Under the pieces are notes generated by a model. That model saw only the letters and a program-made list of their open reading frames with translations. It made no database searches and was not told the origin of the DNA. A DNA stretch of 15,374 nt from a virus. Taxonomy: Duplodnaviria > Heunggongvirae > Uroviricota > Caudoviricetes. A program made the position numbers and the translations under genes. The first letter of the stretch is position 1, and the number at the start of each line of letters is the position of its first letter. This document shows positions 9,984 to 11,591 of this stretch, one piece after another. The DNA lies in the IMG/VR virus record IMGVR_UViG_2778261572_000010; one strand, written 5' to 3'.

Positions 9984-11591
9984 TTAAAGCTTGTTCTTTT
10001 GTGGTTTACATAGCTTCTTTTTATAAATATCTGGGTCCACAGCAATTTTGCAGATCCTGACCTCATACCCAAAATTGGTAATACTCTTGTGGAAATTTTT
10101 TAAGTTTACTTTAGAAAACAAAGGTAAATCTTCGGGAAGATTTTTATTAGAAGCTATGGCGAAAACTAGTTTATATTTTTTAGCATCTGGTCTATTTATA
10201 TGATCGGCTAATTTTATATGAGCAGGCAGTTTCTCATTAAGTTTGCCTCGAAATTCAGAGTCACTTATAAAAAGTTCAGAACCTATAAATCCTTGTGAAA
10301 AAAGATGGCTCATACTTTGCGAACCAGTATAATATTTTACATGGATAAAATCTGATTGACCTCTGATAAGATCACAAAATTCAATCTTACTTTTACCACC
10401 ACCATGATGAATGAATTTCTGATCCATGTGTGTAAAGGAATTATCATCTTGGCAAAGTTTTTTATTATAATCCTCCTCTCGTTTATATGAATATACAGGG
10501 AATTTGTCCGACTCCTCATAATGAATTATTTTTTTCATTTCATCATCAATAGTCGATACAAAATTCCTATCTGCAACATACCATATAGAGTCTCGAAGAA
10601 TATAGTTCTGATCACCTTCTTTTATCTCGGCATAGAGGCACCTATATAAAGACCATTTTTTTATTGATTCAAAATCGGCATTCAAAACATGCAGGTAATT
10701 TTTTTTGAGTTCATCAACAGTTACTTCAGTTTTCTTACCATCAAAATAATCACAAACATGGTATATTGATAAGGTTTCATGAATGAATCTTTGTCTCTTA
10801 TCAAAGCAATAGCCTATTTGATTTTCCCAGTCTACTATTTCTGGCTCTCCAAGCCATAAATCATTGAAGTCTTTTTCCTTTATCCGATCAATCAAAAGCG
10901 AATCCAATATCTCAACTTCTTGTTCATCAGCCTCCTTGATATTGTTAACCCATTCGAATTCTTCAGGAAGAGGTAATAAGTAAATAGAGTCTATTTTGGT
11001 CAACAGTGCTGGAATAGCCTTCAATTCAATATCCGGCATGATCACAAAAGCATCTTTGCCAGTAATTTTACTTCCTAAAATATCTTCTGTCGAAGTGCCT
11101 GTGAGAGTTGTAAGAATATCCATCTCAGAATCTATTTTTAGGTTGTATATATCGACTTCTTTACTGCTCTGACTGCGAGTTAACAGGTTCGTTTCGTTGT
11201 GACTGCCTTTATCTAAACTGCGAATTTTTTTATGTTCTATACTATTAAGAGTTGTTTTAAGCCCAAATCCTTTGACAATGCTGCCATCATTGATTAAGTG
11301 ATGACCGGTTCCAAAGGGAATAAGATATCTGGAATTGTTAGCTTCAATAACTAATACTGCTCCTGTGCTACTATTCATACCGAAGAAATCAGGTTCTATG
11401 CCAGGATTTTGGCCCATAAAAAAGGTGGTCCATTCAGGAGGTTTTGGGTCCATGTACTCCTTTACATATAGATATGCTCGTGCATCCTCCATCTCGAATT
11501 CAACAGGTCTTTTGACCCTTTCCAAATTCAAAACCTGATCAATATCATCGCTAAACCTTTTTGTTTTATAAATAGAGAGTTTTATCTTCAT
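9984..11591 (-). CDS. Hypothetical protein, 535 aa, AT-rich; no confidently recognised domain
   Basis: Uninterrupted 1.6-kb ORF. ATG lies 18 nt downstream of the hxsA stop on the same strand, with AGGT about 9 nt upstream. Composition differs from the hxs genes (about 30% G+C by hand count of sampled lines). Contains HHGGGKS (not a canonical P-loop) and a possible nuclease-like CDL...DFIHVK segment. Confidence 0.8.
   Translation of the reverse strand: MKIKLSIYKTKRFSDDIDQVLNLERVKRPVEFEMEDARAYLYVKEYMDPKPPEWTTFFMGQNPGIEPDFFGMNSSTGAVLVIEANNSRYLIPFGTGHHLINDGSIVKGFGLKTTLNSIEHKKIRSLDKGSHNETNLLTRSQSSKEVDIYNLKIDSEMDILTTLTGTSTEDILGSKITGKDAFVIMPDIELKAIPALLTKIDSIYLLPLPEEFEWVNNIKEADEQEVEILDSLLIDRIKEKDFNDLWLGEPEIVDWENQIGYCFDKRQRFIHETLSIYHVCDYFDGKKTEVTVDELKKNYLHVLNADFESIKKWSLYRCLYAEIKEGDQNYILRDSIWYVADRNFVSTIDDEMKKIIHYEESDKFPVYSYKREEDYNKKLCQDDNSFTHMDQKFIHHGGGKSKIEFCDLIRGQSDFIHVKYYTGSQSMSHLFSQGFIGSELFISDSEFRGKLNEKLPAHIKLADHINRPDAKKYKLVFAIASNKNLPEDLPLFSKVNLKNFHKSITNFGYEVRICKIAVDPDIYKKKLCKPQKNKL

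What the first reader, a model, noticed from the sequence alone, without database searches (positions are those of the whole stretch)
9984..11591. 535-aa unknown protein immediately downstream of hxsA: a possible fifth component or an independently acquired effector
The ORF starts 18 nt after the hxsA stop on the same strand with a plausible ribosome-binding site, so it is probably co-transcribed with the cassette. Its composition (about 30% G+C) differs from the hxs genes (about 45-52% by hand count), suggesting separate origin. I could not place it in a family. A C-terminal segment (EFCDL...DFIHVK) loosely resembles a PD-(D/E)xK nuclease core, but this is speculative.
Basis: inference. Interest (0 to 1): 0.6.

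Follow-up and report, generated by a model that had tools for sequence, protein, structure and literature searches.

The report
DUF6119 nuclease-like gene beside HXS
The 535-residue protein after hxsA is an intact member of a rare, uncharacterised family (DUF6119/TIGR04141) with a nuclease-like fold. It occupies a swappable slot next to the HXS anti-phage operon that holds known defence genes in sister elements, so it is most likely a separate defence gene and not a fifth HXS part.

Summary
The ORF is real: window 9984-11591, minus strand, 535 aa, starting 18 nt after hxsA. It is not an orphan. It matches Pfam DUF6119 and NCBIfam TIGR04141 end to end and is identical to RefSeq WP_000694699.1. 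No paper I could search assigns the family a function.

HXS (hxsDBCA) is a published four-gene anti-phage system that works without this gene. In 67 evaluable hxs loci from metagenomes, the gene after hxsA varies: DUF6119 type 1 (19), a 22%-identical DUF6119 type 2 (9), Gabija GajA (8), PDC-S06 (6), QatA, a SIR2 protein, PRTase proteins, or nothing. The slot often lies between hxs and a ParB-ParB-serine-recombinase trio.

Outside Enterobacterales, DUF6119 stands alone or sits inside type I/III restriction-modification operons.

Best reading: an autonomous, probably DNA-targeting defence nuclease carried as island cargo and probably co-transcribed with hxs. Defence and nuclease activity are both inferred, not shown.

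The parts
9984..11591 (-). Intact 535-aa gene for a DUF6119 / TIGR04141 family protein, identical to RefSeq WP_000694699.1.
   Evidence: ORF. Pfam DUF6119 424.7 bits and TIGR04141 521.1 bits, both full length. 100% nucleotide identity to the annotated gene in E. coli F8. No transmembrane segment: the maximum Kyte-Doolittle 19-residue window is 1.22.
10497..11591 (-). N-terminal and middle region (residues 1-365). It is RdgC-like and proposed to bind DNA. It contains a conserved loop (residues about 123-160) that is predicted to be disordered.
10032..10511 (-). C-terminal domain (residues about 361-520) with a restriction-endonuclease-like (PD-(D/E)xK) fold.
10335..10382 (-). Candidate active-site motif E404-F-C406-D407-(x9)-H417-V-K419.
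   Evidence: E372, Y375, D390, E404, C406, D407, H417, K419, S428, H429, Q433 and R448 are invariant in 70 family members at 31-100% identity. The divergent type-2 subfamily keeps E..D...K but has Ala at the His position.
11592..11609 (-). 18-nt gap between hxsA and the DUF6119 gene.
   Evidence: Sequence. No promoter or terminator consensus. The gap is 2-28 nt in all but one (79 nt) of the other type-1 loci.
11610..12245 (-). hxsA, the His-Xaa-Ser repeat effector of the HXS anti-phage system.
   Evidence: TIGR03979 167.6 bits. RefSeq coordinates come from L001. Function from PMC13128918.
12242..13354 (-). hxsC, a radical SAM maturase.
   Evidence: TIGR03977 406.1 bits. Annotation.
13347..14735 (-). 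hxsB, a radical SAM/SPASM maturase.
   Evidence: TIGR03978 582.1 bits.
14735..15007 (-). hxsD.
   Evidence: TIGR03976 93.3 bits. Annotation.
9603..9827 (+). Integrase fragment (pseudogene) between the DUF6119 stop codon and the ParB genes. It looks like a scar at the right edge of the slot.
   Evidence: RefSeq annotation of the identical region in L001 (21765-21989), converted to window coordinates.
6152..9487 (+). Serine recombinase plus two ParB/RepB-like genes, convergent with the DUF6119 gene. This trio is the conserved right flank of the variable slot.
   Evidence: Pfam Resolvase+Recombinase, and ParB_N+RepB twice. The same trio follows the slot in loci that carry DUF6119 type 1, type 2, GajA or PDC-S06.

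Best explanation
The ORF encodes a complete, cytoplasmic DUF6119/TIGR04141 protein. It has an RdgC-like N-terminal region, probably for binding nucleic acid, joined to a C-terminal restriction-endonuclease-fold domain. The likely catalytic residues are E372, E404, D407, H417, K419 and Q433.

It is not part of the HXS machinery. It is a self-contained cargo gene in a swappable slot between hxsDBCA and a ParB-ParB-serine-recombinase module of an enterobacterial genomic island. Sister elements carry recognised defence systems in that slot (Gabija, PDC-S06, QatA, SIR2 and PRTase proteins).

The most likely function is a single-gene anti-phage or anti-mobile-DNA nuclease that cuts invading DNA in the cytoplasm. 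It is probably transcribed by read-through from the hxs promoter. It would therefore add a second, intracellular layer behind the periplasmic DNA-entry block made by HXS.

Shown here: family membership, fold similarity, invariant residues, slot variability, and stand-alone occurrence elsewhere.
Inferred: nuclease activity, DNA as the substrate, a defence role, and co-transcription.
For: Family and integrity:
- Full-length HMM matches.
- About 4,200 representatives at 50% identity, of uniform length.

Fold:
- RdgC is the top hit for residues 1-365.
- Twelve C-terminal residues are invariant across 70 sequences down to 31% identity.

Independence from HXS:
- The four hxs genes are necessary, and a four-gene clone protects against 110 of 113 phages (PMC13128918).
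- Slot content in 67 evaluable HxsC-anchored metagenome loci: type-1 DUF6119 19, type-2 DUF6119 9, GajA 8, PDC-S06 6, PRTase 2, SIR2 1, QatA 1, Old-like 1, small unknown proteins 8, none or opposite strand 12.
- Cassettes with 94-97% identical HxsC carry a 54%-identical type 1, type 2, or GajA.
- L093, L094 and L139 have a trio 99-100% identical to the window's, yet carry GajA plus a 560-aa gene in place of DUF6119.

Autonomy:
- All 70 relatives at 46% identity or less, and the type-2 relatives in Pseudomonas, Acinetobacter and Pectobacterium, lack hxs within 7-10 kb.
- In Pectobacterium and Brenneria, hxsBCA is deleted but DUF6119 stays intact behind an hxsD stump.

Defence context:
- The commonest neighbours of stand-alone members are type I and type III restriction-modification genes and DrmD-like SNF2 helicases.
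- Copies also occur on plasmids and in the integrase-proximal accessory region of a Pseudomonas prophage.
- The E. coli islands also carry Abi, OLD-family and ABC-three-component genes and a relaxase.

Composition: 34.0% G+C against 41-45% for hxs.
Against: - No experiment on any DUF6119 member was found.
- There is no PADLOC hit.
- The motif lacks the canonical acidic residue of (D/E)xK. It has His in type 1 and Ala in type 2.
- In E. coli the link is very tight. DUF6119 was found in 103 genomes against 110 genomes with any hxs match, and only next to hxs wherever both coordinates were listed.
- Two subfamilies only 22% identical both occupy this slot. The gaps are only 2-21 nt. These points leave room for a functional tie to HXS.
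- The metagenome loci are not independent samples and are skewed to close relatives, and my ORF calling was crude.
Confidence: 0.6

Rival explanations
1. Coupled back-up effector. DUF6119 is a latent nuclease functionally wired to the first-line system it sits beside: HXS here, type I/III restriction-modification or DISARM-like systems elsewhere. It is released when a phage inhibits or bypasses that system, as the anticodon nuclease PrrC is by EcoprrI.
For: - Two subfamilies only 22% identical were both recruited directly after hxsA.
- DUF6119 shows near-complete co-occurrence with hxs in E. coli.
- Gaps after hxsA are 2-21 nt.
- In Neisseria, Haemophilus and other loci, DUF6119 is embedded between a DrmD-like SNF2 helicase and type III Mod/Res genes, with gene boundaries that abut or overlap.
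- It also lies inside type I hsd loci in about 10 of 70 stand-alone loci.
- PrrC-related PDC-S06/AAA_13 proteins occupy the same slot.
Against: - Most stand-alone members have unrelated, often housekeeping, neighbours: 93 Pfam families among 136 neighbours.
- DUF6119 does not co-evolve with hxs; the slot gene is swapped between near-identical cassettes.
- DUF6119 is retained after hxsBCA deletion.
- Self-sufficient systems such as Gabija occupy the same slot.
Confidence: 0.2
2. True fifth HXS component, needed for HxsA maturation, export or function in native hosts.
For: - Same strand, 18-nt gap, no terminator.
- The HXS authors note that additional host factors may be needed for maturation in vitro.
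- The most populous HxsC cluster (P0135) has DUF6119 downstream.
Against: - A four-gene clone is sufficient in MG1655 and BL21, which lack this gene.
- At least 39 of 67 evaluable hxs loci have no DUF6119.
- Distant hxs cassettes, with 47-54% identical HxsC, never have it.
- The protein has a nuclease-like fold and no signal peptide or membrane segment, whereas HxsA acts in the periplasm.
Confidence: 0.03
3. Mobile-element housekeeping factor rather than a defence gene. An RdgC-like nuclease would serve the ParB-ParB-serine-recombinase module, for example in excision, maintenance, exclusion of competing elements or recombination control.
For: - G+C of 34% matches the trio at 32-35% and not hxs.
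- In many loci the gene ends 3-4 nt from the convergent RepB-like gene.
- The N-terminal region resembles RdgC, a recombination-associated DNA-binding protein.
Against: - The trio occurs with GajA, PDC-S06 or type-2 DUF6119 in the slot.
- None of the 70 stand-alone DUF6119 loci has the trio.
- Some type-1 loci (L005, L008, L090) lack the trio.
Confidence: 0.07
4. Same autonomous defence role, but the substrate is RNA. This would be a metal-independent RNase using a Tyr/His/Lys constellation on a restriction-endonuclease-like fold, as in the tRNA-splicing endonuclease EndA, and it would act by abortive infection.
For: - Y375, H417, H429 and K419 are invariant in the TIGR04141 subfamily.
- The canonical acidic residue of (D/E)xK is replaced by His.
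Against: - H417 is Ala in type-2 DUF6119, while E404, D407 and K419 persist. That favours a metal-dependent acid/acid/Lys site.
- The best structural matches are DNases.
- The N-terminal match is to the DNA-binding protein RdgC.
Confidence: 0.1

Closest known systems
Pfam DUF6119 (PF19614) / NCBIfam TIGR04141 'sporadically distributed protein'
   Same: Full-length HMM matches far above the cut-offs, the same length, and the same invariant residues. The protein is identical to an annotated RefSeq protein.
   Different: Nothing differs; it is a member. The family itself has no assigned function, and no functional paper was found.
Stand-alone or effector PD-(D/E)xK defence nucleases (Hachiman HamA, Shedu SduA, Upx; also type IIS cleavage domains such as FokI and N.BspD6I)
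   Different: There is no detectable sequence similarity: the PDB profile search gave zero hits and there was no PADLOC hit. The motif is a variant, ExxD...(H/A)xK. The N-terminal region is different (RdgC-like). No helicase partner is required in most loci.
RdgC (E. coli recombination-associated DNA-binding protein; Pfam PF04381)
   Different: There is no Pfam RdgC hit even at E up to 10. Sequence identity is 7%. RdgC has no nuclease domain and is a housekeeping protein.
PrrC / RloC-type latent nucleases embedded in restriction-modification loci
   Same: The genomic logic is similar: a nuclease-like gene inserted inside or directly after a first-line defence operon. DUF6119 sits inside type I/III restriction-modification loci and after hxsA, and PrrC-related PDC-S06 occupies the same hxsA slot.
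   Different: The fold is unrelated: DUF6119 has no ABC ATPase domain and no anticodon-nuclease domain. Coupling to the neighbouring system is not shown.
HXS anti-phage system (hxsDBCA; Li et al., Nat Commun 2026, PMC13128918)
   Same: Physically adjacent on the same strand and probably in the same transcript. Both are cargo of the same island.
   Different: It is not one of the four defining genes and is not needed for HXS activity. It is absent from most hxs lineages outside Enterobacterales and is interchangeable with other defence genes.

Membership tests
DUF6119 / TIGR04141 | Whole-protein HMM score above the curated cut-off, covering the full model. | tested here: met
   PF19614 scores 424.7 bits against a cut-off of 27 and covers profile positions 1-523 of 524. 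TIGR04141 scores 521.1 bits against a cut-off of 35 and covers 1-516 of 516.
DUF6119 / TIGR04141 | Single-architecture protein of about 520-550 aa carrying the family's invariant residues. | tested here: met
   535 aa. Homologues are uniform in length. E372, Y375, D390, E404, C406, D407, H417, K419, S428, H429, Q433 and R448 are all present.
PD-(D/E)xK (restriction-endonuclease-like) nuclease superfamily | Core alpha-beta-beta-beta-alpha-beta fold. | tested here: met
PD-(D/E)xK (restriction-endonuclease-like) nuclease superfamily | Canonical catalytic motif D...(D/E)xK. | tested here: inconclusive
   D407 and K419 are in the expected strands, but the acidic position is His417 (Ala in type 2). 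Invariant E404 and E372 could supply the second carboxylate.
PD-(D/E)xK (restriction-endonuclease-like) nuclease superfamily | Metal-dependent phosphodiester cleavage. | not testable with these tools
   This needs biochemistry.
HXS (His-Xaa-Ser) system | Being one of the four defining proteins HxsA, HxsB, HxsC or HxsD (TIGR03976-03979). | tested here: not met
   The ORF hits none of the Hxs models. Those models hit the four upstream genes.
HXS (His-Xaa-Ser) system | Conserved co-occurrence with the cassette across its range. | tested here: not met
   DUF6119 follows hxsA in 28 of 67 evaluable metagenome loci. It is absent from all cassettes whose HxsC is 47-54% identical to ours. The slot otherwise holds GajA, PDC-S06, QatA and others, or nothing.
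HXS (His-Xaa-Ser) system | Requirement for HXS anti-phage activity. | not tested
   By publication, the four-gene clone suffices and each of the four genes is required (PMC13128918). No experiment has been done on a native five-gene locus.
RdgC family | Pfam RdgC (PF04381) sequence match. | tested here: not met
Catalogued anti-phage defence systems (PADLOC-DB v2) | Match to any defence-protein model. | tested here: not met
   Zero PADLOC families for the ORF, whereas the alternative slot genes score 770-910 bits to GajA, PDC-S06 and QatA.

The most novel reading that the evidence does not exclude
DUF6119 is a new family of anti-phage nucleases that is recruited repeatedly as a back-up layer wired to first-line barriers: the HXS DNA-entry block, type I/III restriction-modification systems, and DISARM-like modules. 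It stays latent until a phage defeats or bypasses that barrier. The hxsA-proximal slot would then be a dedicated docking site for such second-layer effectors.
Probability: 0.17. Interest if true: 0.7.

Novelty: new member of a known kind. Interest (0 to 1): 0.45.

Why it matters
- The HXS system was described in 2026 as a strictly four-gene unit. The data here show that in Enterobacterales it usually travels with a variable neighbour in a defined slot, and that the commonest occupant is an uncharacterised, nuclease-like family.
- This nominates DUF6119/TIGR04141 (about 4,200 clusters at 50% identity) as a testable candidate defence family.
- It identifies a defence-gene hotspot with conserved flanks (hxsA on one side, ParB-ParB-serine recombinase on the other) that could be mined for further systems.
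- It suggests a natural pairing of a periplasmic DNA-entry block with an intracellular nuclease.
- If the gene proves unrelated to defence, the finding reduces to a correctly annotated DUF next to a known operon.

Tried and rejected
- Sequence search of the PDB with a 49-sequence profile gave zero hits at E up to 10.
- Foldseek against the PDB with the full model gave nothing below E 0.001; the sliding-clamp and other top rows had probability 0.44 or lower.
- Pfam scans of the N-terminal, middle and C-terminal fragments of three diverse members at E up to 10 gave only DUF6119 itself.
- PADLOC gave no hit and PHROGs gave only phrog_18579, of unknown function.
- Literature searches for DUF6119, TIGR04141, PF19614, the RefSeq accession and 'sporadically distributed protein' found nothing functional. 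The HXS paper never mentions a downstream gene.
- I tried to inspect the source strain of the published HXS clone (E. coli MEM, CP012378), but the record is not in the collection. I therefore do not know what follows hxsA in that strain.
- I looked for an HxsD-like small gene beside stand-alone DUF6119 members by three rounds of profile search over the ORFs of the 84 loci then held. It is present only in the enterobacterial clade, so I rejected an 'HxsD-DUF6119 pair'.
- I considered that DUF6119 belongs with the ParB/recombinase trio because of matching G+C. I rejected this because the trio accompanies other slot genes and never accompanies stand-alone DUF6119.
- I considered a decayed or fused ORF and rejected it on the full-length profile coverage.
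Full report
**Observation**

The window has an uninterrupted 535-codon ORF at 9984-11591 on the minus strand. Upstream on the same strand are hxsD (14735-15007), hxsB (13347-14735), hxsC (12242-13354) and hxsA (11610-12245). Each scores above the NCBIfam equivalog cut-off.

- The ORF's ATG lies 18 nt after the hxsA stop. The gap (TAAAATATTAGGTAAAATAGA-ATG) has only a weak AGG(T) Shine-Dalgarno-like element.
- No promoter-like or terminator-like consensus lies in the gap.
The ORF is 34.0% G+C and the hxs genes are 40.9-44.6%. The ORF matches the 32-35% of the ParB/ParB/serine-recombinase genes on its other side.

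**Family**

The protein is not unplaceable.

- It matches Pfam DUF6119 (PF19614, 424.7 bits) and NCBIfam TIGR04141 'sporadically distributed protein' (521.1 bits) over the full length of both models.
- The window is E. coli DNA. The gene is 100% identical to a RefSeq gene annotated as TIGR04141 family (WP_000694699.1) and is present at 99% identity or more in 61 of 5,426 complete genomes.
- An exhaustive profile search finds 4,221 representatives at 50% identity (3,307 at E of 1e-10 or lower). Almost all of the best 150 are 515-570 aa and match full length. The family is small and has one architecture.
- A decayed or fused ORF is excluded.
- No paper in the searchable library gives the family a function. 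It has no PADLOC model, and its only PHROG match is of unknown function.

**Fold**

An AlphaFold model built from 49 homologues has mean pLDDT 80 and one disordered loop at residues 123-160.

- In 70 family members spanning several phyla and 31-100% identity, twelve C-terminal residues are invariant: E372, Y375, D390, E404, C406, D407, H417, K419, S428, H429, Q433 and R448.
It lies on consecutive strands that follow a helix carrying E372 and precede a helix carrying Q433.
- The motif is a variant, with His where the canonical (D/E)xK has an acid. A second DUF6119 subfamily has Ala there but keeps E, D and K.
- The protein has no hydrophobic segment, so it is cytoplasmic.

**Relation to HXS**

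hxsDBCA is now a published anti-phage system (PMC13128918).

- A four-gene clone from E. coli MEM protected MG1655 against 110 of 113 phages by blocking DNA entry.
- All four genes were required, and HxsA is the periplasmic effector.
- The paper describes the system as four genes and never mentions a downstream gene.

In complete E. coli genomes:

- hxs matches occur in 110 genomes, in lineages 99%, 95% and about 74% identical at the nucleotide level.
- The window's DUF6119 ('type 1') is in 72 genomes.
- A second DUF6119 ('type 2') is in 31 genomes. It is 549 aa, has only 22% identity to ours in pairwise BLASTP, and still scores 105 bits to PF19614.
- In every record where both sets of coordinates were listed, the two genes are adjacent.
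- The pairing is shuffled. The 95%-identical hxs cassette carries type 2, and the 74% cassette carries type 1 at 80% amino-acid identity.

**The slot**

A metagenome scan anchored on HxsC gave 80 loci, of which 67 have enough sequence after hxsA to evaluate. The same-strand gene after hxsA is as follows:

| Gene after hxsA | Loci | PADLOC or Pfam support |
|---|---|---|
| Type-1 DUF6119 | 19 | PF19614 |
| Type-2 DUF6119 | 9 | PF19614 |
| Gabija GajA, followed in L093 by a 560-aa gene | 8 | 769-910 bits |
| PDC-S06 (AAA_13, PrrC-related) | 6 | 805 bits |
| PRTase-type proteins | 2 | PRTase_III-A, 103 bits (L162) |
| QatA | 1 | 848 bits |
| 919-aa SIR2 protein | 1 | Pfam SIR2_2; weak ThsA hit |
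| Old/AriA-like ATPase | 1 | AriA, E 5.7e-19 |
| Small unknown proteins | 8 | none |
| Nothing, or opposite-strand genes | 12 | not applicable |

- Cassettes whose HxsC is 94-99% identical to ours carry type 1, a 54%-identical type 1, type 2, or GajA.
- In many loci, the right edge of the slot is the same convergent ParB-ParB-serine-recombinase trio seen at window 6152-9487, whatever fills the slot.
- L093, L094 and L139 have a trio 99-100% identical to the window's, yet hold Gabija in place of DUF6119.
- In the window, an integrase fragment (about 9603-9827, plus strand) lies between DUF6119 and the trio.
- The surrounding E. coli islands carry a relaxase and further defence genes: Abi, OLD-TOPRIM, an ABC-three-component system, and HigB/ImmA.

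**DUF6119 elsewhere**

A scan of one genome per species returned 80 loci.

- Members 80% or more identical (Enterobacterales) always follow hxsA.
- A 75% clade in Pectobacterium and Brenneria has lost hxsB, hxsC and hxsA. It keeps an hxsD stump (about 55 HxsD-like residues) directly upstream of an intact DUF6119.
- All 70 members at 46% identity or less have no hxs gene within 10 kb.
- Type-2 relatives in Pseudomonas, Acinetobacter and Pectobacterium are also stand-alone.
- Neighbours of stand-alone members are heterogeneous: 93 Pfam families among 136 flanking proteins. The commonest are restriction-modification components: ResIII 8, N6_N4_Mtase 5, HSDR_N 4, SNF2 4, with PADLOC REase_I, MTase_III and DrmD.
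- In five loci (Neisseria, Haemophilus, Methylomonas and others) DUF6119 sits between a DrmD-like SNF2 helicase and type III Mod/Res genes; in three of them the gene boundaries abut or overlap.
- About ten loci are type I hsd loci.
- Copies also occur on 30 plasmids, and in the accessory region between two integrase genes at the end of a Pseudomonas phage genome.

**Interpretation**

The gene is best read as autonomous cargo in a defence hotspot. It is a cytoplasmic protein with a DNA-binding-like N-terminal region and a nuclease-like C-terminal domain, most likely a single-gene anti-phage or anti-mobile-DNA nuclease. It is probably transcribed with hxs.

- Retention of the hxsD-proximal region in the Pectobacterium deletion derivatives is consistent with use of the hxs promoter. 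This is inference.
- It is not an obligatory HXS component.
- What stops me dismissing a functional tie is that two very divergent DUF6119 subfamilies both landed in this slot, that occupancy in E. coli is near total, and that DUF6119 is tightly embedded in restriction-modification operons elsewhere. These facts fit a PrrC-like 'back-up behind a first-line barrier' model, which I rate at about 0.2.
- An RNA substrate (invariant Tyr/His/Lys) and a mobile-element housekeeping role are weaker rivals.

**Limits**

- Nuclease activity, substrate, defence phenotype and co-transcription are all untested.
- Fold-search scores are moderate.
- The metagenome loci are not dereplicated and favour close relatives.
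- ORFs in fetched loci were called with a simple longest-ORF rule.
- The strain used for the published HXS clone could not be inspected.

**Verdict**

The gene is a catalogued family member of unknown function.

The new content is the recognition of the hxsA-proximal variable slot and of DUF6119 as its main occupant, which makes it a candidate defence nuclease. I rate the interest as moderate.

Noticed in passing
window 6152-9487 (+); also L006, L009, L013, L093, L098, L099, L171-L175: A serine recombinase plus two ParB/RepB-like genes (32-35% G+C) forms a conserved trio. It is convergent with the slot gene in many hxs islands, whatever the slot holds. Two versions exist, one at least 86% identical to the window's trio and one about 45% identical. 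Its role, such as island integration or partition, is unknown.
   Followed up: partly
window about 9603-9827 (+): A tyrosine-integrase C-terminal fragment, annotated as a pseudogene in the identical E. coli F8 region, lies between the DUF6119 stop codon and the ParB gene. Most sister loci have only a 3-4 nt gap there. It looks like a recombination scar at the slot boundary.
   Followed up: no
L010 9736-9975, L011 9733-9975, L012 3072-3236: In Pectobacterium and Brenneria, an hxsD stump (the first 55 or so residues are HxsD-like, then unrelated sequence) sits about 25 nt (L010, L011) to about 100 nt (L012) upstream of an intact DUF6119. hxsB, hxsC and hxsA are cleanly deleted.
   Followed up: yes
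L066, L071, L077, L078, L083 (about 6980-17100): DUF6119 is embedded in a five-locus operon type: a DrmD-like SNF2 helicase (about 960 aa), DUF6119, a type III-like N6/N4 methyltransferase (about 567 aa), and further downstream (directly, or after one intervening gene) a ResIII helicase-nuclease (about 900 aa). In L071, L077 and L078 DUF6119 abuts or overlaps both the SNF2 and the methyltransferase genes. This may be a multi-gene system in which DUF6119 is an integral part.
   Followed up: partly
L156 2342-2698, L157 1703-2059, L160 4128-4487, L161 5711-6070: In distant, probably marine, hxs cassettes (HxsC about 51% identical), a conserved 118-119-aa ORF overlaps the hxsA stop codon by 4 nt. 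It has no Pfam or PADLOC match and may be an extra cassette member in that lineage.
   Followed up: no
window 11112-11225 (-), residues about 123-160 of the ORF: This loop is predicted to be disordered (pLDDT below 50), yet it contains family-invariant residues S125, D127, K128, R139, Q141 and S142. It may fold on binding DNA or a partner.
   Followed up: no
window 3117-4316 (+) and 4640-5869 (+); 1308-2821 (+): Two tyrosine integrase genes lie in tandem beside prophage-type genes (an SPFH/Band-7 protein, DUF5406, DUF4222). In E. coli F8 the inner integrase is truncated by IS3. The window therefore spans a junction between an island and a prophage.
   Followed up: no
L004 11446-13258 (E. coli O55:H7 RM12579); NZ_LR882057 (H60): The type-2 DUF6119 is annotated as frameshifted in O55:H7 strain RM12579. 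In one chicken isolate, hxs is almost entirely lost to IS3 insertion while DUF6119 remains. Both genes of the pair can therefore decay independently.
   Followed up: no
L176 3989-5698 (Pseudomonas phage vB_PaeS-D14B): A 569-aa DUF6119-like gene, 26% identical to ours, lies between two integrase genes at the end of a temperate phage genome. This is a typical position for prophage accessory or defence genes.
   Followed up: partly
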